From: Escherichia coli
GTDB taxonomy: Bacteria; Pseudomonadota; Gammaproteobacteria; Enterobacterales; Enterobacteriaceae
Length of the DNA: 64,000 bases
NCBI RefSeq assembly: GCF_017348835.2
Contig: NZ_CP071375.1
Direction: 5' to 3' (one strand)
Part shown: in pieces, positions 738 to 49,075 of the stretch
How positions within the stretch are numbered: the first letter of the stretch is position 1
How the letters are laid out: the number at the start of each line of letters is the position of its first letter
Notes under the pieces: model-generated
Seen by the model: only the letters and a program-made list of their open reading frames with translations
What the model was told of the DNA's origin: nothing
Database searches by the model: none
Translations under genes and position numbers: made by a program

Positions 738-3700
738 GTGAAGTTTTTTGCCCTCTTCATTTACCGCCCGGTGGCGACGATTTTACTGTCGGTCGCCATT
801 ACCCTGTGCGGCATACTGGGTTTCCGTATGCTGCCGGTCGCCCCGCTGCCGCAGGTCGATTTTCCGGTGATTATGGTCAGCGCCTCGCTGCCCGGTGCGT
901 CGCCGGAGACAATGGCGTCTTCCGTTGCCACGCCGCTGGAGCGCTCACTTGGGCGCATTGCCGGGGTCAGTGAAATGACCTCCAGCAGTTCGCTCGGCAG
1001 CACGCGTATTATTTTGCAGTTTGATTTTGACCGGGATATCAACGGTGCGGCGCGTGATGTGCAGGCGGCGATCAACGCCGCACAAAGTCTGCTGCCCAGT
1101 GGGATGCCCAGCCGCCCGACTTATCGCAAAGCGAACCCGTCGGATGCGCCAATTATGATCCTGACGCTAACCTCCGATACTTATTCGCAGGGTGAATTGT
1201 ACGATTTCGCCTCGACGCAGCTGGCTCCGACGATTTCGCAAATCGACGGCGTCGGTGATGTCGATGTCGGCGGCAGCTCGCTGCCCGCCGTGCGCGTCAG
1301 GCTGAACCCGCAGGCGCTGTTTAATCAGGGCGTGTCGCTGGACGACGTACGCGCTGCCATCAGCAATGCCAACGTGCGTAAACCGCAGGGGGCGCTGGAA
1401 GATGGCACTCACCGCTGGCAGATCCAGACCAACGATGAACTGAAAACCGCCGCTGAATATCAGCCGTTGATTATTCATTACAACAACGGCGGCGCGGTTC
1501 GTCTGGGCGATGTGGCGACGGTGACCGACTCAGTGCAGGATGTGCGCAACGCCGGGATGACCAACGCCAAACCGGCTATTTTGCTGATGATCCGCAAGCT
1601 GCCGGAAGCCAATATTATCCAGACGGTTGACAGCATCCGGGCAAAATTACCGGAGTTGCAGGAAACCATTCCGGCGGCGATTGATCTGCAAATTGCTCAG
1701 GATCGCTCCCCCACCATTCGCGCCTCGCTGGAAGAAGTCGAGCAAACGCTGATTATCTCGGTGGCGCTGGTGATTCTGGTGGTGTTTTTATTCCTGCGCT
1801 CGGGTCGCGCCACTATTATTCCCGCCGTTGCGGTGCCGGTTTCGCTGATTGGTACGTTTGCGGCGATGTACCTGTGCGGATTCAGTCTCAATAACCTGTC
1901 GTTAATGGCGCTCACCATCGCCACAGGCTTTGTGGTGGATGACGCCATCGTGGTGCTGGAAAACATTGCCCGTCATCTGGAAGCGGGGATGAAACCACTA
2001 CAGGCCGCGCTACAAGGTACTCGCGAAGTCGGTTTTACGGTGCTGTCGATGAGTCTGTCACTGGTGGCGGTGTTCCTGCCGCTGCTGTTGATGGGCGGAT
2101 TGCCGGGACGACTGTTACGCGAGTTTGCCGTAACGCTTTCTGTCGCCATTGGTATTTCGTTGCTGGTTTCCCTGACGCTAACGCCGATGATGTGTGGCTG
2201 GATGCTGAAAGCCAGCAAGCCGCGCGAGCAAAAGCGACTACGTGGTTTTGGTCGCATGTTGGTAGCCCTGCAACAAGGCTACGGCAAGTCACTGAAATGG
2301 GTGCTCAATCATACCCGTCTGGTGGGCGTGGTGCTGCTTGGCACCATTGCGCTGAATATCTGGCTATATATCTCGATCCCGAAAACCTTCTTCCCGGAGC
2401 AGGACACTGGCGTGTTGATGGGCGGGATTCAGGCGGATCAGAGTATTTCGTTTCAGGCGATGCGCGGTAAGTTGCAGGATTTCATGAAAATTATCCGTGA
2501 CGATCCGGCAGTGGATAATGTCACCGGATTTACCGGCGGTTCGCGAGTGAACAGCGGGATGATGTTTATCACCCTCAAGCCACGCGACGAACGCAGCGAA
2601 ACGGCGCAGCAAATTATCGACCGTCTGCGCGTGAAGCTGGCGAAAGAACCGGGGGCGAATCTGTTCCTGATGGCGGTACAGGATATTCGCGTTGGTGGGC
2701 GTCAGTCGAACGCCAGCTACCAGTACACGTTGTTATCCGACGACCTGGCGGCACTGCGCGAATGGGAGCCGAAAATCCGCAAAAAACTGGCGACGTTGCC
2801 GGAACTGGCGGACGTGAACTCCGATCAGCAGGATAACGGCGCGGAGATGAATCTGGTTTACGACCGCGACACCATGGCACGGCTGGGAATCGACGTACAG
2901 GCCGCCAACAGTCTGTTAAATAACGCCTTCGGTCAGCGGCAAATCTCGACCATTTACCAGCCGATGAACCAGTATAAAGTGGTGATGGAAGTGGATCCGC
3001 GCTATACCCAGGACATCAGCGCGCTGGAAAAAATGTTCGTTATCAATAACGAAGGCAAAGCGATCCCGCTGTCGTATTTCGCTAAATGGCAACCGGCGAA
3101 TGCCCCGCTGTCGGTGAATCATCAGGGATTATCGGCGGCCTCGACCATCTCGTTCAACCTACCGACCGGAAAATCGCTCTCGGACGCCAGTGCGGCGATC
3201 GATCGCGCAATGACCCAGCTTGGTGTGCCTTCGACGGTGCGCGGTAGTTTTGCCGGCACGGCGCAGGTGTTCCAGGAGACGATGAACTCGCAGGTGATCC
3301 TGATTATCGCCGCCATCGCTACGGTGTATATCGTGCTGGGTATCCTTTACGAGAGTTACGTACATCCGCTGACGATTCTCTCCACCCTGCCCTCGGCGGG
3401 CGTTGGAGCGCTGCTGGCGCTGGAGCTGTTCAATGCCCCGTTCAGCCTAATCGCCCTGATAGGGATCATGCTATTAATCGGCATCGTGAAGAAAAACGCC
3501 ATTATGATGGTCGATTTTGCGCTCGAAGCCCAACGGCACGGTAACCTGACGCCGCAGGAAGCTATTTTCCAGGCCTGTCTGCTGCGTTTTCGCCCGATTA
3601 TGATGACTACCCTGGCGGCGCTGTTTGGCACGCTGCCGCTGGTGTTGTCGGGCGGTGACGGCTCGGAGTTGCGCCAACCATTGGGGATCACCATTGTCGG

Positions 3701-35384: not shown

Positions 35385-35515
35385 CCCGACTCCTTTTTTG
35401 TATAGATAAACCATCAGCTGATAGTTTACCTGAAGAATATAGAGAAGTACTTACTTAACATTTTCCCATTTGGTACTATCTAACCCCTTTTCACTATTAA
35501 GAAGTAATGCCTACT

Positions 35516-37549
35516 ATGACTCAAGTCGCGAAGAAAATTCTGGTGACGTGCGCACTGCCGTACGCTAACGGCTCAATCCACCTCGGCCATATGCTGGAGC
35601 ACATCCAGGCTGATGTCTGGGTCCGTTACCAGCGAATGCGCGGCCACGAGGTCAACTTCATCTGCGCCGACGATGCCCACGGTACACCAATCATGCTGAA
35701 AGCTCAGCAGCTTGGTATCACCCCGGAGCAGATGATTGGCGAAATGAGTCAGGAGCATCAGACTGATTTCGCAGGCTTTAACATCAGCTATGACAACTAT
35801 CACTCGACGCACAGCGAAGAGAACCGCCAGTTGTCAGAACTTATCTACTCTCGCCTGAAAGAAAACGGTTTTATTAAAAACCGCACCATCTCTCAGCTGT
35901 ACGATCCGGAAAAAGGCATGTTCCTGCCGGACCGTTTTGTGAAAGGCACCTGCCCGAAATGTAAATCCCCGGATCAATACGGCGATAACTGCGAAGTCTG
36001 CGGTGCGACCTACAGCCCGACTGAACTGATCGAGCCGAAATCGGTGGTTTCTGGCGCCACCCCGGTAATGCGTGATTCTGAACACTTCTTCTTTGATCTG
36101 CCCTCTTTCAGCGAAATGCTGCAGGCATGGACCCGCAGCGGTGCGTTGCAGGAGCAGGTGGCAAATAAAATGCAGGAGTGGTTTGAATCTGGCCTGCAAC
36201 AGTGGGATATCTCCCGCGATGCCCCTTATTTCGGTTTTGAAATTCCGAACGCGCCGGGCAAATATTTCTACGTCTGGCTGGACGCACCGATTGGCTATAT
36301 GGGTTCTTTCAAGAATCTGTGCGATAAGCGCGGCGACAGCGTAAGCTTCGATGAATACTGGAAGAAAGACTCCACCGCCGAGCTGTACCACTTCATCGGT
36401 AAAGATATTGTTTACTTCCACAGCCTGTTCTGGCCTGCAATGCTGGAAGGCAGCAACTTCCGCAAGCCGACCAACCTGTTTGTTCATGGCTATGTGACGG
36501 TGAACGGCGCGAAGATGTCTAAGTCTCGCGGTACCTTTATTAAAGCCAGCACCTGGCTGAATCATTTTGACGCCGACAGCCTGCGTTACTACTACACTGC
36601 GAAACTCTCTTCGCGCATTGATGATATCGATCTCAACCTGGAAGATTTCGTTCAGCGCGTGAATGCCGATATCGTTAATAAAGTGGTTAACCTGGCCTCT
36701 CGTAATGCGGGCTTTATCAACAAGCGTTTTGACGGTGTGCTGGCAAGCGAACTGGCTGACCCGCAGTTGTACAAAACCTTCACTGATGCCGCTGAAGTGA
36801 TTGGTGAAGCGTGGGAAAGCCGCGAATTTGGTAAAGCAGTGCGCGAAATCATGGCGCTGGCTGACCTGGCTAACCGATATGTCGATGAACAGGCTCCGTG
36901 GGTGGTGGCGAAACAGGAAGGCCGCGATGCCGACCTGCAGGCAATTTGCTCAATGGGCATCAACCTGTTCCGCGTGCTGATGACTTACCTGAAACCGGTA
37001 CTGCCGAAACTGACCGAGCGTGCAGAAGCATTCCTCAATACAGAACTGACCTGGAATGGTATCCAGCAACCGCTGCTGGGCCACAAAGTGAATCCGTTCA
37101 AGGCGCTATATAACCGCATCGATATGAAGCAGGTTGAAGCACTGGTGGAAGCGTCTAAAGAAGAAGTGAAAGCAGCTGCCGCGCCAGTTACTGGCCCACT
37201 GGCAGATGATCCGATTCAGGAAACCATCACCTTTGACGACTTCGCCAAAGTTGACCTGCGCGTGGCGCTGATTGAAAACGCAGAGTTTGTTGAAGGTTCT
37301 GACAAACTGCTACGCCTGACGCTGGATCTCGGCGGCGAAAAGCGTAATGTCTTCTCCGGCATTCGTTCTGCTTACCCGGATCCGCAGGCACTGATCGGGC
37401 GTCACACCATTATGGTGGCCAACCTGGCGCCACGTAAAATGCGCTTTGGTATCTCCGAAGGCATGGTAATGGCTGCTGGTCCTGGCGGGAAAGATATTTT
37501 CCTGTTAAGCCCGGATGCTGGTGCTAAACCAGGCCATCAGGTGAAATAA
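35516..37549 (+). CDS. metG: Methionyl-tRNA synthetase MetG (677 aa)
   Basis: HLGH (as HIGH-class motif) and KMSKS motifs; Zn knuckles CPKC/CEVC; start at MTQVAKK. Confidence 0.95.
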
Positions 37550-37558
37550 TCCCCCTTC

Positions 37559-37588
37559 AAGGCGCTGCATCGACAGCGCCTTTTCTTT
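37559..37588 (+). terminator. Rho-independent terminator of metG
   Basis: Hairpin AAGGCGCTG-catcga-CAGCGCCTT followed by TTTTCTTT. Confidence 0.8.
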
Positions 37589-37689
37589 ATAAATTCCTAA
37601 AGTTGTTTTCTTGCGATTTTGTCTCTCTCTAACCCGCATAAATACTGGTAGCATCTGCATTCAACTGGATAAAATTACAGGGATGCAGA

Positions 37690-40600
37690 ATGAGACACTT
37701 TATCTATCAGGACGAAAAATCACATAAATTCTGGGCGGTTGAGCAACAGGATAATGAGCTTCATATTAGATGGGGTAAAGTCGGTACTAACGGGCAAAGT
37801 CAGATAAAAAGTTTTTCAGATGCTGCTGCAGCGGCAAAAGCGGAGCTTAAGCTGATCGCAGAGAAAACGAAAAAAGGCTATGTGGAAAATGCTTCAGCAA
37901 ACGTGCATATCTCCCCCATCACCAAAGCCACTCCTGAAGTTGAAACTTCCCCTGAGAGTAAAAACCAACGCCCGTGGCTGGCTGATGATGCAGTTATTCC
38001 GGTAACTGACGATATTAACCGATTTGCTTTTCCTCATCGCTCTCGCCCCAGAGAGATCAATTATCTGCGCAAAGACGGTGAGATATGGAAGCGTATTGCA
38101 GATAACACCAGGGCATATGATCCCGACAACAATTACCGCTCTTATCCTGAAAACTGGCAGCAGGCTTTTGCTGAGTTACAAAGGCGAATTCTGGATAATC
38201 AACAGACAGGGAGTGCGCAATCTGATGCAGCATTGCTCTGGAGTTTTTGGAACTCTTACTCTGCAGATGAACTGGTCGATGACTTAGTCATTCGCTGTGG
38301 TCTGGAAAGCGCCGTTGAAATCGCCCTTTTTGCCCTTCAACTCAAATATAAACCAGTAAAAGGCGCAGTAACCACCATCATTCCACCTAATCACGAAGCA
38401 GAATCGCTACCTAGTTGGCATCAACGTCTATGTCATCATCTTTCACTCGCTTCAGAAGATGAGTGGCAACGCTGTGTAGATAAAGTACTCACCGCCATTC
38501 CGACGCTATCCCCCGCACGGCAACCTTTTGCGGCGCTACTGCTCCCTGAACGCCCGGATATCGCCCATGCTATAGCTCTACGCTATGCAGACCAAAACGT
38601 CCCGGCGATCACCTGGTTAAGTATGATGGTAAGCGATGATGTTGCCCTGGCCATCCAGGAAATATATGGTTTCCCACCGCTATATAATGATTTCCGCAAA
38701 TATCTGGCTACGTTGCTGGCAAATAATGGAATGCGTGGTGTAAGCCGGATTCTTCTCAAGCTACCTGTCGACTATCCCGTAAAATACACGGACCTTTTCA
38801 CTCACATACACGCCAATGCTGAAGATCTTGTCAAATGGCTATGGAAAACGAATCACCCGGATGCGATTCAAATTCTGATCCTCGGTGTAAATGGCAAGAA
38901 AAAGCACCTGGAATACTTAAGCAAAGCCTGCCAAAAACATCCCGCTGCGGCTATTGCCGCTTATGCTACTTTGCTGGCAATACATGAAAATAATGAGTGG
39001 CGTAAAGCGCTTGTCAAACTGATTACTGCCACGCCAGAGTTAGTATGCGAGGTCATTCCCTGGGTTAATGCTAAGGCGGCAGGCATCTTATCTGAATGTC
39101 GTCCGCTGCCAGTAGCTGAAGAATGTGAATATGCCACTGTGGATATGTTGCCGGAGCTGCTTGTCGCTCCACCGTGGATAATAAATAAGAAAAAGAATGT
39201 CATACCCGTATTTGATTTACCGGTACTTCCCATTCCTGCCGTCACGGATATCACACCAGGAATTACAGAGTTAATCAGTCATACTGACATATCCAGATTC
39301 AGTGAAATCGCGCAATATCAGGCATCACAGCAAACCTTATTTACCGATCTGCCACTAATTGAAAAAGAAAGCTGGGAGACATCTTTCATTCCTTTTACAC
39401 CAGAACAACAAATCCTTTGGCAATTAGGTTTTAATGAATGGCTGCATTGCGAAAATGACTTACATGAAAAAAAATATATACCGCAAAGCGCTGTTGATGC
39501 CTTGTTGCGCTTTGATTTTCCAGCACTAAAAGCTGAGTTTGCGAAATATCACAACAATGCCAACAAAAGCTGGAATCTATCTGCGCTTTGTTACTTACCG
39601 GGACAACAGGCGATCTCATTTCTCAACCAAATAATCATTGAGGAGCGATATTCAGGTGAGAAAGAGATTCTGGCGGTTTTTGGTAGTACGGCCATTCCTG
39701 CGTTTATGACCTGCTTGCAACGAGATCATCAACGCCTGTGGATATTCACCCTTTTTATTGGAGCCAGTGAACTAGCCTTACCAATGGCGCAGCGGTTACA
39801 GAAAAAAATGGGTTACAAGGATGCCGTTAATTGGCTGGCAAATAACCCGCGCCATGCCGCCGCCGGGCTACTGCCTTTGGCGCTGGGCAAACCGTGCCAA
39901 AATCGGGAATATGCCCGCCAGGCACTCCTCCTGCTAGTGAAATTAAACCAGCGAGAAACGATTGAGGAAATCACCCAAGGATATAATCAACCTGATGTTT
40001 TAGCTGCGCTGGCAACATTATTTGATAGCGACCCACTGGAAGAATATCCTGCAAAAATCGCCCCACTGCCCGGCTTTTATCAGTTCCCCTTATGGCGCAG
40101 ACCTCGGCTTAAAAGTAACAACCTGCCTCTGCCAGATGACACTATGCGCCACCTCGGCACAATGTTGAGCTTTCCACGCGACATTACCTCCTACGCTGGG
40201 CTGGCGATCATCAAAGAGACCTTCACCCGCGAATCACTGGCTGACTTTGGCTGGGATCTCTACACGGCATGGACAGAAGCTGGCGCACCCGCAAAAGAGA
40301 ACTGGGCATTTACCTCGCTGGGGATTCTAGGCAATGACGACACCGCGCGTAAACTAACCCCGCTCATCCGCGCCTGGCCGGGTGAATCCCAGCATAAACG
40401 CGCGGTTTACGGGCTGGATGTGTTAGCCAGTATCGGTAGCGACATTGCGCTTATGTTGCTTAATGGCATTGCGCAAAAGATTAAATTCGTTGCATTACAG
40501 GAACATGCCAGCGACAGAATCAATATGGTCGCCGAAAATCGCGGACTGACAATGGCCGAACTGGAAGATCGCCTGGCGCCGGATTTAGGGCTTGATAGCA

Positions 40601-41490
40601 GTGGCTCGCTGATACTGGATTTCGGCCCCCGCAAATTCACCGTTGGTTTTGACGAAACCTTAAAACCTGTAGTGTGCGATGCAAACGGCAAAGTCCTGAA
40701 AGATTTACCTAAGCCAAACCAGAGCGATGATAAAACACTGGCAACTGACGCAGTTAATCTCTTCAAACAGTTGAAAAAAGATGTTCGTGCTATCGCCAGC
40801 CAGCAAATTACCCGTCTGGAACAGGCTATGTGCCAGCGCAGACGCTGGACGGCAGAGCAGTTCCGCCTGTTTCTGGTGGAGCATCCGCTGGTACGTCACT
40901 TAACCCGACGGCTGTTATGGGGAGTATATACTGAGGAAAACACGCTGATTGCCTGCTTCCGGGTCGCAGAAGATAGCACTTACAGCGATGCGCAGGAAGA
41001 GCTATTCACGTTACCAGCAGGAAACATCGGTATTCCGCATGTGCTGGAAATATCCCCTGAATCCGCCGCTGCATTCAGGCAAATTTACGCTGATTACGAA
41101 CTGCTTCCCCCTTTCCAACAGCTCGAGCGAGGTAGCTATCACCTTGCTGATAATGAACGTAATACTCACGAACTGACACGCTGGCAAGGACGGCTTTGCC
41201 AGGCCGGACGCATTGTCGGGCTGGAACGCCGAGGCTGGCAACGTCTGGAAGAAAGCGGCAGCGTTTATGCGATGCGCAAAACAACCCCTCATGGCGATCT
41301 CGAACTTGAAACGGAACCTTTTTCATTAATTTATGGTGAAACGGGGTATGGCGACCAGCTACCGGTTGAAAGCGTAAAAATCACCTCGCCAGATGATCGC
41401 TACGGTAAACAATCCTCACTCACTTTCTCCATGCTCGACGACATCACCGCCAGCGAGCTGATTAACGACATCGAATCACTGTTTGATTAA
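37690..41490 (+). CDS. molR: MolR-like large protein, paralog 1 (1266 aa): N-terminal WGR domain + long DUF4132-type body
   Basis: N-terminus MRHFIYQDEKSHKFWAVEQQDNELHIRWGKVGTNGQSQ is a WGR-domain signature; remainder recognised as the YehI/MolR family; apparently intact here. Symbol assignment is from memory and tentative. Confidence 0.7.
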   Translation: MRHFIYQDEKSHKFWAVEQQDNELHIRWGKVGTNGQSQIKSFSDAAAAAKAELKLIAEKTKKGYVENASANVHISPITKATPEVETSPESKNQRPWLADDAVIPVTDDINRFAFPHRSRPREINYLRKDGEIWKRIADNTRAYDPDNNYRSYPENWQQAFAELQRRILDNQQTGSAQSDAALLWSFWNSYSADELVDDLVIRCGLESAVEIALFALQLKYKPVKGAVTTIIPPNHEAESLPSWHQRLCHHLSLASEDEWQRCVDKVLTAIPTLSPARQPFAALLLPERPDIAHAIALRYADQNVPAITWLSMMVSDDVALAIQEIYGFPPLYNDFRKYLATLLANNGMRGVSRILLKLPVDYPVKYTDLFTHIHANAEDLVKWLWKTNHPDAIQILILGVNGKKKHLEYLSKACQKHPAAAIAAYATLLAIHENNEWRKALVKLITATPELVCEVIPWVNAKAAGILSECRPLPVAEECEYATVDMLPELLVAPPWIINKKKNVIPVFDLPVLPIPAVTDITPGITELISHTDISRFSEIAQYQASQQTLFTDLPLIEKESWETSFIPFTPEQQILWQLGFNEWLHCENDLHEKKYIPQSAVDALLRFDFPALKAEFAKYHNNANKSWNLSALCYLPGQQAISFLNQIIIEERYSGEKEILAVFGSTAIPAFMTCLQRDHQRLWIFTLFIGASELALPMAQRLQKKMGYKDAVNWLANNPRHAAAGLLPLALGKPCQNREYARQALLLLVKLNQRETIEEITQGYNQPDVLAALATLFDSDPLEEYPAKIAPLPGFYQFPLWRRPRLKSNNLPLPDDTMRHLGTMLSFPRDITSYAGLAIIKETFTRESLADFGWDLYTAWTEAGAPAKENWAFTSLGILGNDDTARKLTPLIRAWPGESQHKRAVYGLDVLASIGSDIALMLLNGIAQKIKFVALQEHASDRINMVAENRGLTMAELEDRLAPDLGLDSSGSLILDFGPRKFTVGFDETLKPVVCDANGKVLKDLPKPNQSDDKTLATDAVNLFKQLKKDVRAIASQQITRLEQAMCQRRRWTAEQFRLFLVEHPLVRHLTRRLLWGVYTEENTLIACFRVAEDSTYSDAQEELFTLPAGNIGIPHVLEISPESAAAFRQIYADYELLPPFQQLERGSYHLADNERNTHELTRWQGRLCQAGRIVGLERRGWQRLEESGSVYAMRKTTPHGDLELETEPFSLIYGETGYGDQLPVESVKITSPDDRYGKQSSLTFSMLDDITASELINDIESLFD

Positions 41491-41502
41491 AAGGATTTAA
41501 CA

Positions 41503-44500
41503 ATGAAAACCTATATTTATCAGGACGAAAAATCACATAAATTCTGGGCGGTGGAGCAGCAGAGAAACGAGCTGCATATTACCTGGGGTAAAGTCGGCAC
41601 TAACGGGCAAAGTCAGGTAAAAAGCTTTGCAGATGCTGCGGCGGCGGAAAAAGCGGAACTGAAGCTGATTGCGGAGAAGGTGAAGAAGGGGTATGTGGAG
41701 CAAGTAGACGCTAACGCTCACTCACATGATGCCTCAGCAAAGAAAGTCCTGGTCACAGAGGAAAAAGCCTCAATAAATCACCAGGCAGCAACTAATGGTT
41801 TACCCTGGCTGGCAGATAACGATCCCATTATTCTTCCCCCGAATATTGCCCGCCATGCCCTCAGCCACCGCCTTTGGCCGGGAGAGCCAGTAAAAAAGCC
41901 AACCAAACCCGAGAAACAAAATTTAATTTCCCGATTGGCAAATCGTACTTATCATTATTATAAAAATCTGACTTTCGATTACAGCTCATGCTCTGATGAA
42001 TGGGCTGATGCGATTAGCCAGGCAATCAGCTTAATTAAGGCCCAAAAGACTGAGATACCCGCGCGTACTATGGCGGTACTTACTTTTCTGGAAATATGTT
42101 TTTGTCAGGGCTGGAATGATGAAACCTCACCCGAGTTGCTGGATGAAATTGTAAGCACCTTCGGTATCGAATACGCAACTGAAACTGTCATCTTCTGGTG
42201 GCAAATTGATTTCGATTTTGACTATAAAGATGAACATTTGACTTTCTTTATTAATTATGGAGATAGCAGCAAGGACAGTTATAGAAGGAATAACGACAAA
42301 TTTAGTTTACGTCTGCGTAAACATTTATCACTAGCAGAAGAAGAAGTATGGCAAAATTGCATTGCAAAATTACTCGTTGCGTTACCAGATATATCACTCT
42401 ATCGCCAACCGTTAATTGCCATTTTAATGCCAGAAATACCCGAAGTGGCCCATGAGATCGTACATCGTTTACACCAGGTCGCAGATGTTCCACAACTTGA
42501 AATGTTGAAACTGGTAGCGACAGATCCATTCACGCTCGAAATACTGGAGAACTATCAATACATTGATGTATTTAACACCTATGGTGCCAGTTGGTCAGCT
42601 ACGGTATTACGGGAGCAAGGTATAGCGGCACTGGCTCGCCTGGCTCCCTATGCTGAAGAAGATAATTGCGGTGACGTACTGAAATGTATTAATCATCCGT
42701 TGGCCATTACGGCACTCATCGAAGCCGCCGATACTAATAAACGCTGTTATGAACGACTAATAAAAAGTGCCGAAAATTTTCCTTCTGCAACGATAGTGGC
42801 ATTAGCCGAAGCATTGGTAAAAAAAGATGATAAACGCAAACATATGTTGCTGGTTTCATTACTTAATGCAAATCCTTTATTGGTCGAAAAATTAGTCATC
42901 GGATTATCGTCGCAAGCGGCAAATTTATTGCAACAATGTCAGCAATTGCTGAATAGTCGCAATGAAGATTTTGCAAACTCAGAAATTCTACCAATGGTAC
43001 TAGTCTCGCCGCCCTGGGAAACTCAAAATAAAAATAACGACAACAGTCCTGTGGGTAAATACCCGGCGAAAATCCCCCCTTTGCCGTTGTTTTATCAACC
43101 TCCATTATGGACTCGCCCGAAACTCAAAAATAGCAGCAAGGTACTGCCAGATAGCGCCCTCCTCCACCTCGGTGAAATGCTCCGCTTCCCTCAGGAAGAG
43201 GCTCTGTATCCGGGATTATTGCAGGTGAAAGATGCCTGTACCGCCGACTCACTGGCTGAATTTGCCTGGGATCTGTTTACCGCCTGGCTGACTGCGGGCG
43301 CACCGTCGAAAGAGAGTTGGGCGTTCACTGCGTTAGGCGTTCTTGGTAACGATGACACCGCTCGCAAACTGACGCCATTAATCCGCGCCTGGCCTGGTGA
43401 ATCCCAGCATAAACGCGCCACCGTCGGGCTTGATATCCTCGCCGCTATCGGTAGTGATATCGCCCTGATGCAGCTTAACGGCATTGCTCAGAAACTGAAA
43501 TTCAAAGCTTTACAGGAGCGGGCGAAAGAGAAAATTGCCGACATTGCTGAAAGCCGCGAACTCACGGTGGCGGAGCTTGAAGATCGGTTAGCACCAGATC
43601 TCGGTCTGGATGATAACGGTTCGTTGCTGCTGGATTTCGGCTCACGCCAGTTCACCGTCAGCTTTGATGAAACCTTAAAACCGTTTGTGCGTGATGTTTC
43701 TGGCAGCCGTCTGAAAGACCTGCCCAAACCAAACAAAAGCGATGATGAATCACAGGCGAACGATGCTGTTAACCGCTACAAACTGCTGAAAAAAGATGCG
43801 CGTACCGTCGCCGCCCAGCAGGTAGCAAGGCTGGAATCCGCCATGTGCCTGCGTCGCCGCTGGTCACCGGAAAACTTTCAGCTCTTCCTGGTTGAGCATC
43901 CGCTGGTTCGCCACTTAACCCGCCGTCTGATTTGGGGCGTTTATAGCGCCGAAAACCAGCTGCAGGCTTGCTTTCGCGTAGCGGAAGATAACAGCTACAG
44001 CACCGCTGACGATGATCTTTTCACCCTGCCGGAAGGCGATATCTCTATTGGTATTCCTCACGTTCTGGAAATATCACCGACGGATGCTGCCGCCTTTGGT
44101 CAGCTTTTTGCCGACTACGAACTGTTACCACCGTTCCGCCAGCTTGACCGTAACAGTTACGCCCTGACAGAAGCCGAGCGCAACGCCAGCGAACTGACCC
44201 GCTGGGCAGGCAGAAAATGCCCGAGCGGTCGGGTAATGGGGCTGGCGAATAAAGGCTGGATAAAGGGCGAACCACAGGATGGAGGCTGGATCGGCTGGAT
44301 GATCAAACCTCTGGGCCGCTGGTCGTTAATCATGGAAATCGATGAAGGCTTTGCAGTGGGTATGTCACCAGCCGAACTTAGCGCTGAGCAGCTCTTAAGC
44401 AAGCTGTGGCTATGGGAAGGCAAAGCGGAAAGCTATGGCTGGGGGAGTAATTCAACACAGGAAGCGCAGCTCTCCGTACTCGATGCCATCACCGCCAGCG

Positions 44501-44535
44501 AGCTAATTAACGATATTGAAGCCCTGTTTGAATAA
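41503..44535 (+). CDS. MolR/YehI-family paralog 2 (1010 aa): WGR domain + DUF4132-type body lacking an internal segment of about 240 aa
   Basis: N-terminal WGR nearly identical to paralog 1; conserved C-terminal motif ITASELINDIEALFE; internal module absent relative to paralogs 1 and 3. Confidence 0.7.
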   Translation: MKTYIYQDEKSHKFWAVEQQRNELHITWGKVGTNGQSQVKSFADAAAAEKAELKLIAEKVKKGYVEQVDANAHSHDASAKKVLVTEEKASINHQAATNGLPWLADNDPIILPPNIARHALSHRLWPGEPVKKPTKPEKQNLISRLANRTYHYYKNLTFDYSSCSDEWADAISQAISLIKAQKTEIPARTMAVLTFLEICFCQGWNDETSPELLDEIVSTFGIEYATETVIFWWQIDFDFDYKDEHLTFFINYGDSSKDSYRRNNDKFSLRLRKHLSLAEEEVWQNCIAKLLVALPDISLYRQPLIAILMPEIPEVAHEIVHRLHQVADVPQLEMLKLVATDPFTLEILENYQYIDVFNTYGASWSATVLREQGIAALARLAPYAEEDNCGDVLKCINHPLAITALIEAADTNKRCYERLIKSAENFPSATIVALAEALVKKDDKRKHMLLVSLLNANPLLVEKLVIGLSSQAANLLQQCQQLLNSRNEDFANSEILPMVLVSPPWETQNKNNDNSPVGKYPAKIPPLPLFYQPPLWTRPKLKNSSKVLPDSALLHLGEMLRFPQEEALYPGLLQVKDACTADSLAEFAWDLFTAWLTAGAPSKESWAFTALGVLGNDDTARKLTPLIRAWPGESQHKRATVGLDILAAIGSDIALMQLNGIAQKLKFKALQERAKEKIADIAESRELTVAELEDRLAPDLGLDDNGSLLLDFGSRQFTVSFDETLKPFVRDVSGSRLKDLPKPNKSDDESQANDAVNRYKLLKKDARTVAAQQVARLESAMCLRRRWSPENFQLFLVEHPLVRHLTRRLIWGVYSAENQLQACFRVAEDNSYSTADDDLFTLPEGDISIGIPHVLEISPTDAAAFGQLFADYELLPPFRQLDRNSYALTEAERNASELTRWAGRKCPSGRVMGLANKGWIKGEPQDGGWIGWMIKPLGRWSLIMEIDEGFAVGMSPAELSAEQLLSKLWLWEGKAESYGWGSNSTQEAQLSVLDAITASELINDIEALFE

Positions 44536-44544
44536 GGAAAGAGC

Positions 44545-47500
44545 ATGGACAAGGAATTACCGTGGCTGGCTGATAACGCCCAACTGGAACTGAAATATAA
44601 AAAGGGTAAAACACCACTCAGCCATCGCAATTGGCCGGGCGAACCAGTGCCTGTTATCACTGAAAGCATCATTCAGACACTGGGTGATGAATTGCTACAA
44701 AAAGCTGAGAAGAAAAAAAACATTGTCTGGCGTTATGAAAATTTTTCACTGGAGTGGCAGTCCGCCATCACGCAGGCCATCAACTTGATCGGCGAACACA
44801 AACCCTCAATCCCGGCCCGGACAATGGCGGCGCTAGCCTGTATCGCGCAAAATGACAGCCAACAGTTGCTCGACGAAATCGTCCAACAAGAGGGGCTGGA
44901 ATATGCGACTGAGGTGGTGATTGCACGCCAGTTTATTGCGCGGTGTTATGAGAGTGATCCTCTGGTAGTGACATTGCAGTATCAGGACGAGGATTATGGC
45001 TATGGTTATCGCTCAGAAACCTATAACGAATTCGATCTCCGACTGCGTAAGCATCTCTCTCTGGCAGAGGAAAGCTGCTGGCAGCGTTGCGCCGACAAAC
45101 TCATTGCCGCACTACCAGGAATAACCAAAGTTCGCCGCCCTTTTATTGCGCTGATCCTCCCGGAAAAACCAGAAATAGCCAATGAGTTGGTAGGCCTTGA
45201 ATGCCCGCGAACTCATTTTCATTCTAAGGAGTGGTTAAAAGTTGTTGCTAATGACCCCACAGCGGTGAGAAAACTCGAACACTACTGGAGCCAGGATATA
45301 TTTAGCGATCGAGAAGCCAGCTACATGTCGCATGAAAACCACTTCGGCTACGCGGCCTGCGCCTCCCTTTTGCGCGAACAAGGACTGGCAGCCGTTCCGC
45401 GCCTGGCAATGTATGCTCATAAAGAAGATTGCGGCAGTCTGCTGGTACAAATTAACCATCCGCAAGTCATCCGCACCTTGCTGTTAGTTGCTGATAAAAA
45501 CAAACCCAGCCTGCAACGTGTGGCTAAATACAGTAAAAACTTCCCCCATGCGACGCTCGCCGCACTGGCAGAACTGCTGGCGTTAAAAGAACCACCAGCC
45601 CGCCCTGGTTATCCAATCATCGAAGACAAAAAGCTGCCTGCACAGCAAAAAGCTCGAGATGAATACTGGCGTACGCTGTTACAAACGCTGATGGCATCGC
45701 AGCCACAACTGGCAGCAGAAGTGATGCCGTGGTTAAGTACTCAAGCCAGGGCAGTGCTGAAGAGTTATTTATCGGCACTGCCAAAACCGGTTATTGATGG
45801 CACCGATAACAGCAATCTGCCTGAAATCCTCGTTTCACCACCGTGGCGTAGTAAGAAAAAAATGACAGCTCCACGTCTTGATTTGGCACGGCTCGAATTA
45901 ACTCCGCAAGTTTACTGGCAACCAGGCGAACGAGAGAGGCTTGCCGCCACTGAGCCTGCCCGTTATTTCAGCACGGAATCTCTTGCGGAACGCATGGAAC
46001 AAAAAAGTGGACGAGTTGTATTACAGGAACTGGGTTTTGGGGATGATGTATGGCTGTTTTTGAATTATATACTCCCCGGAAAACTGGATGCTGCACGCAA
46101 TTCACTCATTGTTGAGTGGCATTACTACCAGGGGCGGGTTGAAGAGATCCTGAATGGCTGGAACTCCCCGGAAGCACAATTAGCAGAACAGGCGCTTCGC
46201 AGCGGTCACGTAGAAGCGTTAATTAACATATGGGAAAATGACAACTACTCACGTTATCGTCCGGAAAAGAGTGTCTGGAACCTGTATTTATTGGCACAGT
46301 TGCCGCGTGAGATGGCTTTGACCTTCTGGCTGCGTATCAATGAGAAAAAACATCTGTTCGCGGGTGAGGACTATTTTCTCAGTATCCTCGGATTGGATGC
46401 GCTACCAGGTCTGCTGTTGGCTTTTTCACATCGTCCAAAAGAAACATTTCCGTTAATTTTAAATTTTGGCGCAACAGAACTGGCCCTGCCTGTTGCCCGC
46501 GTCTGGCGACGTTTCGCGGTGCAGCGTGATCTGGCTCGCCAGTGGATTTTACAATGGCCGGAACATACGGCTACTGCACTTATCCCTCTTGTCTTCACCA
46601 AATCTAGCGATAAAAGCGAAGCTGCATTACTTGCCCTGCGTTTACTTTACGAACATGGGCATGGCGAATTGCTACAAACTGTAGCCAATCGTTGGCAGCG
46701 TACAGATCTATGGCCTGCCCTGGAACAATTACTTAAACAGAGTCCAATAGAGATTTACCCGGCACGCATTCCAAAAGCCCCTGATTTCTGGCATCCGCAA
46801 ATGTGGTCCAGGCCGCGCCTTATCACTAATAATCAAACTGTTACCGATGACGCTCTGGAAATTATCGGCGAAATGCTGCGCTTTACCCAGGGGGGACGTT
46901 TTTATAGCTGGCTGGAACAACTGAAAACGTTCTGCCAGCCACAAACGCTGGCAGCTTTTGCCTGGGATCTCTTCACTGCGTGGCAACAAGCTGGTGCCCC
47001 CGCAAAAGACAACTGGGCATTTCTGGCGTTAAGTCTCTTTGGTGACGAAAGCACGGCACGGGATCTGACGACACAGATCCTCGCCTGGCCACAAGAAGGC
47101 AAATCTGCCCGTGCTGTCAGCGGCCTGAACATCCTTACCCTGATGAATAATGATATGGCGCTGATACAGCTGCATCATATATCGCAACGGGCTAAATCCC
47201 GCCCCTTACGTGATAACGCGGCGGAATTTCTTCAGGTGGTCGCAGAAAATCGCGGGCTAAGCCAGGAAGAGCTAGCGGACAGATTAGTCCCAACCCTGGG
47301 CCTTGATGATCCGCAGGCGTTGAGTTTTGATTTTGGTCCCCGGCAGTTTACCGTTCGCTTCGATGAAAACCTCAACCCGGTTATCTTTGATCAGCAAAAC
47401 GTTCGCCAGAAAAGCGTTCCCCGGTTGCGCGCCGATGACGATCAACTGAAAGCGCCCGAGGCACTGGCCCGACTAAAAGGGCTAAAAAAAGATGCCACTC

Positions 47501-48177
47501 AGGTGAGCAAAAACCTGCTCCCGCGTCTTGAAACGGCCCTACGTACCACCCGACGCTGGTCGCTGGCAGATTTTCATTCTCTGTTTGTTAATCATCCCTT
47601 TACCCGTCTGGTTACCCAGCGATTAATATGGGGGGCTTATCCGGCAAATGAACCGCGTTGTTTACTCAACGCCTTTCGTGTGGCCGCAGAGGGGGAGTTC
47701 TGCAATGCGCAAGATGAGCCCATTGGCCTGCCTGCGGATGCTCTGATTGGCATTGCCCACCCGTTAGAAATGGCAGCAGAAATGCGCAGTGAATTTGCAC
47801 AGCTTTTTGCCGATTACGAAATTATGCCGCCTTTTCGCCAGTTGGCGCGGCGCACGGTGCTGCTGACGCCTGACGAGTCAGCCAGTAACAGCCTGACTCG
47901 CTGGGAAGGTAAATCCGCTACCGTTGGGCAACTTATGGGAATGCGATACAAAGGCTGGGAGTCAGGCTATGAGGACGCATTTGTCTATGACTTAAGTGAA
48001 TACCGGCTGGTCCTTAAGTTTTCACCCGGTTTTAACCACTACAATGTTGATAGCAAAGCGCTAATGAGCTTCCGTTCTCTTCGAGTGTACCGTGACAATA
48101 AATCCGTCACTTTTGCCGAACTTGATGTGTTTGATTTGAGTGAGGCGTTAAGCGCACCTGACGTCATTTTCCATTAA
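44545..48177 (+). CDS. yehI: DUF4132-family protein YehI (1210 aa), paralog 3, no WGR domain
   Basis: Begins at the conserved LPWLADN motif that lies about 95 aa into paralogs 1 and 2; 1210 aa as I remember for YehI. Confidence 0.8.
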   Translation: MDKELPWLADNAQLELKYKKGKTPLSHRNWPGEPVPVITESIIQTLGDELLQKAEKKKNIVWRYENFSLEWQSAITQAINLIGEHKPSIPARTMAALACIAQNDSQQLLDEIVQQEGLEYATEVVIARQFIARCYESDPLVVTLQYQDEDYGYGYRSETYNEFDLRLRKHLSLAEESCWQRCADKLIAALPGITKVRRPFIALILPEKPEIANELVGLECPRTHFHSKEWLKVVANDPTAVRKLEHYWSQDIFSDREASYMSHENHFGYAACASLLREQGLAAVPRLAMYAHKEDCGSLLVQINHPQVIRTLLLVADKNKPSLQRVAKYSKNFPHATLAALAELLALKEPPARPGYPIIEDKKLPAQQKARDEYWRTLLQTLMASQPQLAAEVMPWLSTQARAVLKSYLSALPKPVIDGTDNSNLPEILVSPPWRSKKKMTAPRLDLARLELTPQVYWQPGERERLAATEPARYFSTESLAERMEQKSGRVVLQELGFGDDVWLFLNYILPGKLDAARNSLIVEWHYYQGRVEEILNGWNSPEAQLAEQALRSGHVEALINIWENDNYSRYRPEKSVWNLYLLAQLPREMALTFWLRINEKKHLFAGEDYFLSILGLDALPGLLLAFSHRPKETFPLILNFGATELALPVARVWRRFAVQRDLARQWILQWPEHTATALIPLVFTKSSDKSEAALLALRLLYEHGHGELLQTVANRWQRTDLWPALEQLLKQSPIEIYPARIPKAPDFWHPQMWSRPRLITNNQTVTDDALEIIGEMLRFTQGGRFYSWLEQLKTFCQPQTLAAFAWDLFTAWQQAGAPAKDNWAFLALSLFGDESTARDLTTQILAWPQEGKSARAVSGLNILTLMNNDMALIQLHHISQRAKSRPLRDNAAEFLQVVAENRGLSQEELADRLVPTLGLDDPQALSFDFGPRQFTVRFDENLNPVIFDQQNVRQKSVPRLRADDDQLKAPEALARLKGLKKDATQVSKNLLPRLETALRTTRRWSLADFHSLFVNHPFTRLVTQRLIWGAYPANEPRCLLNAFRVAAEGEFCNAQDEPIGLPADALIGIAHPLEMAAEMRSEFAQLFADYEIMPPFRQLARRTVLLTPDESASNSLTRWEGKSATVGQLMGMRYKGWESGYEDAFVYDLSEYRLVLKFSPGFNHYNVDSKALMSFRSLRVYRDNKSVTFAELDVFDLSEALSAPDVIFH

Positions 48178-48237
48178 AACACAGCGGGCAGTGATGCAAC
48201 TGCCCGTTATCAACACGACTTACCAGCGGGGAAAGCG

Positions 48238-48555
48238 ATGATCGTGCAAAAAGAGCTGGTTGCTATTTACGATTATGAGGTCCCTGTACCTGAAGATCCG
48301 TTTTCCTTCAGACTTGAGATCCATAAATGCTCTGAATTATTTACAGGTTCCGTCTATCGACTGGAGCGATTCCGGCTACATCCAACATTTCGTCAACGTG
48401 ATCGAGAAGATGCTGACCCGCTAATAAATGATGCGTTGATTTATATAAGAGATGAGTGTATTGATGAGCGGAAATTACGAGGTGAATCACCTGAAACTGT
48501 AATAGCAATTTTTAATCGTGAACTACAGAATATATTCAACCAAGAAATAGAATAA
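48238..48555 (+). CDS. yehK: Uncharacterized protein YehK (105 aa)
   Basis: 105-aa ORF; synteny. Confidence 0.75.
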   Translation: MIVQKELVAIYDYEVPVPEDPFSFRLEIHKCSELFTGSVYRLERFRLHPTFRQRDREDADPLINDALIYIRDECIDERKLRGESPETVIAIFNRELQNIFNQEIE

Positions 48556-48664
48556 TATACTCTAGATAATTCAAGTCGCAGCACATGCAACTTGAAGTAT
48601 GACGAGTATAGCTTTATTAAAGGGGGAAGCGGTTTTCCCCCTTAGATGCGTTTCAATTTGCCCG

Positions 48665-48754
48665 TTACTTCAACAAATCAATCAACCGTAACAGAGCTAC
48701 TAATAGCTCCAGTACAGCAATGAGCACGGTTAACTTTTGTGTCAGCGTGTCCAT
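48665..48754 (-). CDS. zorO: Type I toxin, ShoB/Zor-like small hydrophobic peptide (29 aa: MDTLTQKLTVLIAVLELLVALLRLIDLLK)
   Basis: Not in the ORF track (below size cutoff). ATG with AGGAGA SD 4 nt upstream; single predicted TM helix with charged C-terminus; about 175-nt 5' UTR; divergent antisense sRNA upstream. Symbol from my recollection of the EHEC zorO-orzO locus, unverified. Confidence 0.65.
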   Translation of the reverse strand: MDTLTQKLTVLIAVLELLVALLRLIDLLK

Positions 48755-48935
48755 CCGCTCTCCTTATTAAGGAGCGCAACACCAGCACCTTACCCTTACA
48801 CTGCCTGTCGATACTGGTTTACGTATGTTGGACCACGATGTTGCACTCCGGATCAGGGCACCACCTGCAGCACCACCCGTCCGGTAGCCAGGACTTGAAA
48901 TAGGTTCGATCCGGCGCAACGTCCCAACGGTCTGG

Positions 48936-48986: not shown

Positions 48987-48992
48987 TCGTTC

Positions 48993-49075
48993 GTTGGAAC
49001 ACGATGTTGCACAGGCTGTGGTGTTAGGCCTGAAAATAGTAAATAAAAGAACCTGCCTCACCAGCAGGTTTTTTT
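48993..49075 (+). ncRNA. orzO: Antitoxin sRNA (OrzO/OhsC-like) divergent from the toxin gene
   Basis: Short transcript bounded by the promoter and a rho-independent terminator (CCTGC-ctcacca-GCAGG + T7 at 49053-49075); its first 20 nt (48993-49012) repeat 48827-48846 within the toxin 5' UTR with 19/20 identity, giving antisense complementarity. Confidence 0.6.

What the first reader, a model, noticed from the sequence alone, without database searches (positions are those of the whole stretch)
37700..44535. Long near-identical direct repeats between paralogs 1 and 2 (recombination substrates)
The 5' ends of paralog 1 and 2 share almost identical stretches (37706-37745 versus 41521-41560, ATCAGGACGAAAAATCACATAAATTCTGGGCGGT...), as do the 3' ends (about 41440-41490 versus 44485-44535) and internal blocks (about 40357-40410 versus 43374-43430). 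Such repeats about 3-3.8 kb apart can drive unequal crossover or gene conversion, which would explain the missing module in paralog 2 and strain-to-strain copy and intactness variation at this locus.
Basis: seen in the sequence. Interest (0 to 1): 0.5.

Follow-up and report, generated by a model that had tools for sequence, protein, structure and literature searches.

The report
Recombining ends of tandem molR/yehI paralogs
The repeats are the short conserved start and end of tandem E. coli genes of unknown function (molR/yehI family); other strains show that recombination at these ends has repeatedly deleted whole genes, but this is an ordinary kind of gene-family evolution and does not explain the shortened second gene.

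Summary
The repeats are real but neither long nor near-identical. The p1/p2 gene starts share 198 nt at 84% with one 35-nt perfect run. The gene ends share 65 nt at 85% (18-nt run). The internal block is about 300 nt at 73% (23-nt run). They are the conserved WGR-coding start, the C-terminal tail and a DUF4132 motif of tandem WGR-DUF4132 paralogs (molR-like p1, p2) upstream of yehI.

Recombination at the two ends is supported by other genomes. Among 5,426 complete E. coli genomes, about 67% carry one such gene (K-12 type), about 30% carry two and 14 carry three. Single-gene arrays are fusion genes whose parental switch lies inside the 5' block, at three or more different positions. One strain has a clean 3,774-bp deletion with its junction in a 15-nt identity inside the tail block. 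Paralog groups share polymorphisms at both ends but differ by 81 fixed sites in the conserved C-terminal region that holds the internal block. 5' blocks are more alike within a genus than between orthologs.

The missing module of p2 is not explained by these repeats. The short allele is old, constrained (dN/dS about 0.15) and found in 410 genomes and another Escherichia lineage. This is a new example of a known process; interest is modest.

The parts
37690..41490 (+). Paralog 1 (A-type WGR-DUF4132 gene, 1266 aa). It is always the metG-proximal gene of multi-gene arrays.
   Evidence: ORF; Pfam WGR aa 6-69 and DUF4132 aa 1000-1183. A-type body present in 1,643 of 5,426 genomes at 83-100% identity.
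41503..44535 (+). Paralog 2 (short C-type WGR-DUF4132 gene, 1010 aa). Its 3' 1.4 kb is orthologous to the 3' part of K-12 molR.
   Evidence: ORF; Pfam WGR aa 7-69 and DUF4132 aa 734-919. 43061-48574 is 96% identical to K-12. The N-terminal half occurs in 410 genomes.
44545..48177 (+). Paralog 3 = yehI (1210 aa). It lacks the WGR start and takes no part in the end repeats; only matches of 15 nt or less to p1/p2.
37689..37886 (+). 5' block, copy 1 (WGR-coding start of p1). Holds the 35-nt perfect run 37705-37739.
   Evidence: Low synonymous divergence (pS about 0.4 against about 0.7-0.9 elsewhere).
41502..41699 (+). 5' block, copy 2 (WGR-coding start of p2), 84% identical to copy 1. Perfect run 41518-41552.
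   Evidence: 1 fixed difference against 21 shared polymorphisms between positional gene classes. Chimera switch points map here.
41426..41490 (+). 3' tail block, copy 1 (last 21 codons plus the stop of p1). 18-nt perfect run 41442-41459.
44471..44535 (+). 3' tail block, copy 2 (end of p2), 85% identical to copy 1. Homologous to the 15-nt junction CATCACCGCCAGCGA of the 3,774-bp deletion in strain EC190759.
   Evidence: 0 fixed differences against 9 shared polymorphisms.
40213..40512 (+). Internal conserved block of p1, upstream of the Pfam DUF4132 domain (motif LTPLIRAWPGESQHKRA), 73% identical to 43228-43527. 23-nt perfect run 40381-40403.
   Evidence: Same-codon fraction 48% against 44% background, not significant. 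The surrounding conserved region (alignment columns 2700-3150) has 81 fixed against 13 shared differences.
43228..43527 (+). Internal conserved block of p2 (partner of 40213-40512).
39195..40029 (+). Module of p1 that has no counterpart in p2 (p2 junction at 43035-43044). It includes the deeply diverged cassette at about 39160-39800.
41491..41502 (+). 12-nt spacer between p1 and p2 (AAGGATTTAACA). With the tail and the next 5' block it forms a conserved junction unit in all multi-gene arrays.
37550..37689 (+). metG-p1 intergenic region with the metG terminator (37559-37582). By homology to K-12 it would hold the only mapped promoter of the array (the BglJ-RcsB-activated molR promoter).
   Evidence: PMC3950696. 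Homology of the region to K-12 at 93%. Promoter function here is inferred, not tested.

Best explanation
The repeats are the conserved ends of tandem, co-oriented WGR-DUF4132 genes in the metG-molR-yehI locus. One is a 198-nt block encoding the N-terminal WGR domain. The other is a 65-nt block encoding the C-terminal tail. Together with the 12-nt spacer they form a junction unit between neighbouring genes. Occasional non-allelic recombination between these units does two things: it keeps the ends alike (gene conversion, concerted evolution) and it removes whole gene units of about 3.8 kb, leaving fusion genes.

Shown: copy-number polymorphism; chimeric genes with switch points inside the 5' block; one clean recent deletion with its junction in the tail; shared polymorphisms; 5' blocks more alike within a genus than between orthologs.

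Inferred: the direction of change (mostly deletion from an ancestral multi-gene array); the pathway (RecA-dependent exchange at the 35-nt run, or RecA-independent slippage or template switching at 15-18-nt identities); and a low rate, meaning events on an evolutionary scale rather than a switch.

For the p1/p2 pair in this window the substrate is weak (84% identity, one 35-nt run). The short form of p2 is an independent, old allele, not a product of these repeats.
For: Anatomy.

Synonymous sites: in the first 60 codons pS is 0.37-0.43, against about 0.7-0.9 in most windows elsewhere. Identical-amino-acid codons use the same codon in 67% (5' block) and 71% (tail) of cases, against 45% background (p=0.003 and p=0.046). 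The internal block gives 48%, not significant.

Population counts: A-type body in 1,643 of 5,426 genomes. Contiguous metG / position-1 start / B-type body in 3,664. Junction specific to the three-gene array in 14. Gene maps.

Chimeras: strain 8178 (locus L009) = A_L006 | B_L003_2 with 1 mismatch, switch at gene nt 137-153. Strain 500010 = A_L005 | B_L003_2 with 1 mismatch, nt 137-141. UPEC957C switches at nt 15-51, that is within the 35-nt perfect run. K-12 switches at about nt 159-168.

EC190759: its flanks are 99.85% identical to an L013-type array, 3,774 bp are missing, and the junction is the 15-nt CATCACCGCCAGCGA in the tail.

Fixed versus shared differences between position-1 and position-2-or-later genes: 5' block 1/21, tail 0/9, conserved C-terminal region 81/13.

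Concerted evolution in the 5' block: E. coli p1 versus p2 84% and K. oxytoca gene 1 versus gene 2 80%, but orthologs across genera only 72-75%. In the C-terminal body orthologs (69-75%) exceed paralogs (64-67%).

Outgroups with an A-type gene at position 1: E. whittamii, Escherichia sp. E1V33 and K. oxytoca.
Against: The window's own repeats are short and 15-16% diverged. From established knowledge (not tested here), mismatch repair strongly suppresses such exchange, and RecA-independent deletion falls off with a 3-4-kb spacing.

No genome carries the predicted p1-start/p2-body fusion of this particular array. Only one genome of 5,426 shows the tail-junction deletion.

Different switch points could partly reflect later allelic recombination between strains rather than independent deletions.

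The chimera and polymorphism analyses rest on a sample of about 25 genes, not on all genomes.

Selection at the nucleotide level near gene starts and ends (translation initiation, coupling across 9-12-nt spacers) could add to the synonymous conservation.
Confidence: 0.8

Rival explanations
1. The end blocks are alike only because the WGR domain and the C-terminal tail are under strong purifying selection. They are not exchanged between paralogs and play no part in rearrangements.
For: Amino-acid identity is 83-87% in the 5' block. The internal block is fully explained in this way. Gene starts and ends next to 9-12-nt spacers may carry extra constraints on the RNA.
Against: Excess synonymous identity at both ends. 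21 shared polymorphisms against 1 fixed difference. Within-genus paralogs more alike than between-genus orthologs. Chimeras and a deletion junction lie inside the blocks.
Confidence: 0.05
2. The single-gene (K-12-type) array is ancestral, and multi-gene arrays arose by insertion or horizontal transfer of extra paralogs. The polymorphism would then reflect gene gain, not deletion. The end blocks would still be the junctions.
For: The single-gene state is the majority in E. coli (3,664 of 5,426). It is also found in K. grimontii and Erwinia.
Against: A-type genes sit at position 1 in K. oxytoca, E. whittamii and Escherichia sp. E1V33, and the A versus B/C bodies are anciently diverged (45-65% nt). 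Single-gene starts carry haplotypes of different present-day A alleles, with different switch points. EC190759 shows a recent deletion.
Confidence: 0.12
3. The locus is a programmed, fast-switching variation system (phase or antigenic variation), and the repeats are its dedicated recombination sites.
For: Conserved junction units flank very divergent gene bodies, and there is a deeply diverged internal cassette.
Against: There is no recombinase gene among metG, the three paralogs, yehK, zor-orz and yehL/M. No meaningful inverted repeats were found. The repeats are only 84-85% identical. Arrangements are stable within lineages: 405 of 410 C-type genomes are at least 99% identical.
Confidence: 0.03
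4. The three-gene structure or the repeats are an assembly artefact.
For: None beyond the general risk that tandem paralogs pose.
Against: 100% match to a complete genome, and the short p2-type sequence is present in 410 complete genomes with the same gene order verified in several loci. Exact repeats are 35 nt or shorter, too short to mislead an assembler.
Confidence: 0.01

Closest known systems
Unequal crossover and gene conversion in tandem paralog clusters (for example the Staphylococcus aureus lpl/ssl clusters, where the unit of variation spans the end of one gene, the spacer and the start of the next; Tsuru and Kobayashi 2008, recalled from memory and not checked here)
   Same: Co-oriented tandem paralogs. 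Conserved segments act as crossover sites. Copy number varies between strains. There are chimeric genes, and the junction unit (tail + spacer + next start) is conserved.
   Different: Here the exchanged segments are very short (198 and 65 nt, 84-85% identical) and the gene bodies are extremely diverged (45-65%). Exchange is therefore confined to the gene ends, and events appear rare.
Lepore-type fusion genes (human delta-beta globin; red/green opsin arrays)
   Same: A deletion between misaligned tandem paralogs leaves one hybrid gene with the promoter and 5' end of the upstream copy and the body of the downstream copy. K-12-type molR has exactly this structure.
   Different: This is a bacterial haploid chromosome. 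Homology at the junction is only tens of bases. In E. coli the fusion form has become the majority allele.
Short-homology (RecA-independent) deletion between direct repeats in E. coli, and the minimal efficient processing segment of about 23-27 bp for RecA/RecBCD recombination (Shen and Huang 1986; Bzymek and Lovett 2001; established knowledge, not tested here)
   Same: The EC190759 junction is a 15-nt identity. The window's perfect runs are 35, 23 and 18 nt, around or below the threshold for efficient homologous recombination.
   Different: Classical slippage deletions involve repeats tens to hundreds of bp apart, whereas here the spacing is 3.0-3.8 kb. The pathway was not determined.
MolR / YehI family (Pfam WGR PF05406 + DUF4132 PF13569); the E. 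coli K-12 'molR' pseudogene
   Same: p1 and p2 have WGR + DUF4132. p2's 3' half and yehI are 96% identical to K-12. The upstream region is homologous to the BglJ-RcsB-activated molR promoter region (PMC3950696).
   Different: K-12 has a single, frameshifted chimeric gene. This window has two intact genes: the A-type gene that K-12 lacks, and a short allele that lacks a module of about 265 aa.

Membership tests
Tandem paralog array evolving by non-allelic recombination (unequal crossover / gene conversion) | Direct (co-oriented) repeats at equivalent positions of neighbouring genes | tested here: met
   Offsets of 3813, 3015 and 3045 nt, all on the + strand and in register
Tandem paralog array evolving by non-allelic recombination (unequal crossover / gene conversion) | Copy-number polymorphism of the unit among strains | tested here: met
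   1, 2 or 3 WGR-DUF4132 genes upstream of yehI: about 3,664, about 1,640 and 14 genomes; gene maps
Tandem paralog array evolving by non-allelic recombination (unequal crossover / gene conversion) | Chimeric genes or deletion junctions that map inside the repeats | tested here: met
   5' block switch points at nt 15-51, 137-141, 137-153 and about 159-168. 15-nt tail junction in EC190759.
Tandem paralog array evolving by non-allelic recombination (unequal crossover / gene conversion) | Concerted evolution: paralogs within a lineage more alike than orthologs between lineages; shared polymorphisms | tested here: met
   5' block 84% and 80% within a genus against 72-75% between genera. 21 shared against 1 fixed. 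The tail is met for shared polymorphisms only (0 fixed, 9 shared); the between-genus test on the tail is not clear.
Tandem paralog array evolving by non-allelic recombination (unequal crossover / gene conversion) | Reciprocal duplication products of the same crossovers | tested here: inconclusive
   Three-gene arrays exist (L003; 14 genomes), and the middle gene carries an A-type tail. However, its last ~800 nt before that tail are a distinct lineage (72%), so it is not a simple reciprocal product.
Long near-identical repeats that are efficient homologous-recombination substrates | Hundreds of bases at 95% identity or more, or many perfect runs above about 25 nt | tested here: not met
   Best block is 198 nt at 84%. 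Perfect runs are 35, 23 and 18 nt only.
WGR-DUF4132 (MolR/YehI) protein family | N-terminal WGR domain and C-terminal DUF4132 domain | tested here: met
   p2: WGR 2e-17, DUF4132 9e-52. p1: WGR 9e-19, DUF4132 2e-51. p3/yehI lacks the WGR segment in the alignment and was not scanned with Pfam because it exceeds 1200 aa.
Programmed DNA-variation systems (shufflons, invertible or cassette switches) | Dedicated site-specific recombinase and defined recombination sites (usually inverted repeats) | tested here: not met
   No recombinase among the neighbouring genes. Only one weak, distant inverted repeat pair.
Known anti-phage defence systems (PADLOC models) | A significant match of any of the three proteins to a defence-system model | tested here: not met
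   0 families for p1, p2 and p3 at E of 0.01 or less

The most novel reading that the evidence does not exclude
The conserved gene ends may act as 'handles' that let whole, very divergent WGR-DUF4132 gene bodies be swapped, lost or stacked between strains. A deeply diverged internal cassette (window about 39160-39800) is the very region that p2 lacks. The metG-yehI array would then be a balanced, specificity-diversified locus, for example a sensor set working with the neighbouring MoxR-type ATPase operon yehLMPQ, perhaps in defence or stress sensing, rather than a decaying gene family. The evidence allows this: alleles differ by dS 1.1-1.65 in the cassette against 0.17-0.30 in the rest of the gene, all under purifying selection, and the same allele types occur across Escherichia lineages. 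No function is known and no defence model matches.
Probability: 0.15. Interest if true: 0.7.

Novelty: new member of a known kind. Interest (0 to 1): 0.35.

Why it matters
It clarifies a poorly understood E. coli locus. The K-12 'molR' pseudogene is a Lepore-type fusion of two ancestral paralogs. Strains like this one (and O157:H7) keep an extra A-type gene and a short allele. Annotation pipelines treat these genes inconsistently: the same intact 3,033-nt ORF is called one gene in PE164 and two partial pseudogenes in another strain. For comparative genomics, the locus needs paralog-aware alignment. Biologically it is a clean, countable bacterial example of concerted evolution confined to gene ends, with junctions down to 15 nt. 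It does not reveal a new mechanism.

Tried and rejected
p1 aa 1-1200 was scanned instead.

2. NCBIfam gave only a sub-threshold N-terminal (WGR-like) match to a Leptospira family. PADLOC gave nothing. The PDB sequence search gave only an N-terminal match (query aa 2-68, the WGR region) to 2ra8. Function therefore stays unknown.

3. A synthetic query for the internal-block recombinant is not a clean test, because the A-type and C-type C-terminal halves cross-align at about 70%. The usable result is that no genome scored above the non-recombinant parent (best 85-86% at full coverage).

4. The 47-nt deletion that makes O157-type p2 a pseudogene was inspected. No flush direct repeat was seen at its edges.

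5. Microhomology at the edges of p2's missing module could not be tested. The nearest full-length relatives are only about 55% identical in that half.

6. Literature searches for DUF4132, molR and yehH-yehM found nothing on recombination at this locus. They found only the molR promoter study and a transposon insertion in ST131.

7. Positive selection as the cause of the variable cassette was rejected: dN/dS is 0.13-0.33 while dS is very high.

Full report
**What is in the window.** The region lies downstream of metG (35507-37549; terminator-like hairpin 37559-37582). It holds three co-oriented large ORFs separated by 12 and 9 nt: p1 37690-41490 (1266 aa), p2 41503-44535 (1010 aa) and p3 44545-48177 (1210 aa). 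These are followed by yehK and yehL. The 11.3-kb locus is 100% identical to the complete genome of E. coli PE164, where p3 is annotated yehI. p1 and p2 carry an N-terminal WGR domain and a C-terminal DUF4132 domain. p3 lacks the WGR start. No defence-system model matches any of them. NCBIfam and the PDB recognise only the N-terminal WGR region.

**Check of the observation.** All three repeat pairs exist, but they are modest.
- The gene starts share 198 nt at 84% (37689-37886 / 41502-41699), with one perfect 35-nt run (37705-37739 = 41518-41552).
- The gene ends share 65 nt at 85%, with an 18-nt perfect run.
- The internal block is 300 nt at 73%, with a 23-nt perfect run.
- Overall, p1 and p2 are 57% identical in DNA and 51% in protein.

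A dot-plot would therefore show a weak colinear paralog diagonal with three short strong spots, not long near-identical repeats.

**Is the end similarity more than protein conservation?** Yes for the two ends, no for the internal block.
- Synonymous divergence is saturated or nearly so along most of the genes (pS about 0.7-0.9 in most windows, 0.5-0.7 in some). In the first 60 codons it is only 0.37-0.43.
- Among codons with identical amino acids, the same codon is used in 67% (5' block, p=0.003) and 71% (tail, p=0.046) of cases, against 45% elsewhere. The internal block gives 48%, which is background.

**Population evidence.** Among 5,426 complete E. coli genomes:
- the A-type (p1) body is present in 1,643, at 83-100% identity;
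- the short p2-type N-terminal half is present in 410, mostly O157:H7/O55:H7 relatives;
- 3,664 have the K-12 arrangement, in which metG, the position-1 gene start and a different (B-type) body are contiguous;
- 14 have an array with three WGR-DUF4132 genes before yehI.

The structure is therefore not invariant.

**Mosaic structure of the genes.** I aligned 25 genes from 14 loci. The 3' 1.4 kb of the gene next to yehI is orthologous in all strains (91-97%). The N-terminal halves fall into deep lineages that are only 45-67% identical. K-12 molR combines a position-1 start, a B-type body and the common 3' part.

**Breakpoints fall in the repeats.** The first 15 nt separate position-1 genes (MRHF...) from later genes (MKTY...). 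Every single-gene array examined starts like a position-1 gene and then switches to a position-2 lineage within the 198-nt block. Best two-parent reconstructions give:
- strain 8178 (locus L009) = A_L006 | B_L003_2, 1 mismatch, switch at gene nt 137-153;
- strain 500010 = A_L005 | B_L003_2, 1 mismatch, switch at nt 137-141;
- UPEC957C switches at nt 15-51, which is the perfectly conserved 35-nt run;
- K-12, the L007 strain (CFSAN061769) and O104:H4 switch at about nt 159-168, a less clean fit.

Different left parents and different switch points argue for several events.

**Direct tests with predicted recombinants.**
- For the tail block I searched for the predicted recombinant (A-type body / tail / yehI). 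Exactly one genome has it, EC190759. Its flanks are 99.85% identical to an L013-type three-gene locus, precisely 3,774 bp (gene 2 plus the spacer) are missing, and the crossover lies in the 15-nt identity CATCACCGCCAGCGA. This is the same stretch as window 41442-41456 / 44487-44501.
- The predicted 5' recombinant of this window's own p1/p2 pair occurs in no genome.
- No internal-block recombinant scored above the parental level.

**Concerted evolution.** Between position-1 genes and later genes of multi-gene arrays, the counts of fixed differences and shared polymorphisms are as follows:

| Region | Fixed differences | Shared polymorphisms |
|---|---|---|
| 5' block | 1 | 21 |
| Tail | 0 | 9 |
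| Conserved C-terminal region | 81 | 13 |

Short conversion-like patches are visible inside the tail of some alleles.

Outgroups from the species collection show arrays of the same design: E. whittamii [A][B][yehI], Escherichia sp. E1V33 metG[A][short C][yehI], K. oxytoca metG[A-like][B-like][yehI]. K. grimontii and Erwinia have single genes. In the C-terminal body, orthologs across genera (69-75%) are closer than paralogs within a genome (64-67%). In the 5' block the reverse holds (84% and 80% within, 72-75% between). This is the classical signature of homogenisation. It also suggests that the multi-gene array is old and that single-gene arrays are derived. That direction remains an inference.

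**The missing module.** In-register repeats cannot create an internal in-frame deletion. The short allele is exactly 3,033 nt in PE164, in strain 2015C-4136CT1 and in Escherichia sp. E1V33. These alleles differ by dS 0.23-0.27 with dN/dS 0.15-0.18. It is therefore an old, constrained form. High identity between p2 and K-12 begins just right of the gap (43061 onward). The gap (p1 39195-40029) removes a cassette in which otherwise 90-99% identical alleles fall to 41-60% (B-type) or 58-80% (A-type). In that cassette dS is 1.1-1.65, against 0.17-0.30 in the rest of the gene, with dN/dS 0.13-0.33. This indicates ancient allelic lineages rather than fast positive selection. How the module was lost cannot be reconstructed, because no close full-length relative exists.

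**Intactness.** Pseudogene states arise in other ways:
- a frameshift and internal stop in K-12;
- an internal stop in the A gene and a 47-nt deletion in the short gene of O157-type strains;
- IS4, IS1203 and ISKpn26 insertions;
- TnMB1860 in an ST131 sublineage (PMC9334617).

**Mechanism and comparison.**
- Basis: the perfect-run lengths are tool results. The recombination thresholds (about 23-27 bp for efficient RecA/RecBCD exchange, suppression by mismatch repair at about 15% divergence) and the named parallels are established knowledge or recalled from memory, and were not tested or checked here.
- Perfect runs of 35, 23 and 18 nt sit at or below the roughly 23-27 bp needed for efficient RecA/RecBCD exchange.
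- Divergence of about 15% is strongly suppressed by mismatch repair.
- The 15-nt junction of EC190759 suggests that short-homology, possibly RecA-independent, events also contribute.
- The process is the bacterial counterpart of Lepore-type fusion and of the junction-unit evolution described for tandem paralog clusters. It is a new example, not a new kind.
- The array has 9-12-nt spacers and no terminator-like site in either spacer, so it probably forms one operon. By homology to K-12, it would be driven from the metG-proximal promoter region, which is activated by BglJ-RcsB there (PMC3950696). This is inferred.

**Verdict.** It is not supported for the internal block, the missing module or intactness variation. 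Novelty: a new member of a known kind. Interest: about 0.35.

Noticed in passing
window 48665-48754 (-) and 49000-49075 (+): A zor-orz type I toxin-antitoxin module lies between yehK and yehL. It consists of a 29-aa ORF (MDTLTQKLTVLIAVLELLVALLRLIDLLK) and an OrzO-P antitoxin RNA (Rfam RF02083, 99.9 bits). There is a single pair here, whereas PMC2887945 describes tandem pairs in O157:H7 EDL933 and none in MG1655. A 25-nt direct repeat (48822-48846 / 48988-49012) sits in the same spacer.
   Followed up: partly
window about 39160-39800 (p1); absent from p2 (junction 43035-43044): A deeply diverged cassette inside WGR-DUF4132 genes. Alleles that are 90-99% identical elsewhere drop to 41-80% here, with dS 1.1-1.65 and dN/dS 0.13-0.33. 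This points to ancient allele classes shuffled among backgrounds. The module missing from p2 removes exactly this cassette.
   Followed up: partly
L003 9083-12115 (strain 2015C-4136CT1), compared with window 41503-44535: The same intact 3,033-nt ORF is annotated as one DUF4132 protein in PE164 but as two partial pseudogenes (WGR fragment + DUF4132 fragment) in 2015C-4136CT1. The short allele seems to be misread by the annotation pipeline as a truncated gene.
   Followed up: partly
window 42712-42758 (p2): O157-type strains (L004, L012) lack these 47 nt, which frameshifts their short allele (2,986 nt). Their A-type gene also has an internal stop, so both genes are pseudogenes there, while both are intact in this window.
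   Followed up: partly
whole locus 37690-48177, compared with other E. coli: Allelic divergence is unusually high for E. coli chromosomal genes as I recall them (typical values are own knowledge, not measured here). A-type alleles are 83-100% identical, dS is 0.17-0.30 even outside the cassette, and the locus as a whole is mostly 90-99% identical between strains.
   Followed up: partly
L001 gene nt 43 (K-12 molR), homologous to window 37732: The K-12 sequence has A instead of T, which changes the conserved KFW of the WGR domain to KFR. It is unique among the 25 genes aligned and adds to the frameshift and stop that already disrupt K-12 molR.
   Followed up: no
metG-yehI locus in other strains: The locus is a recurrent target of mobile elements: IS4, IS1203 and ISKpn26 insertions in the A-type or B-type genes, and the blaCTX-M-15 transposon TnMB1860 in an ST131 sublineage (PMC9334617).
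   Followed up: no
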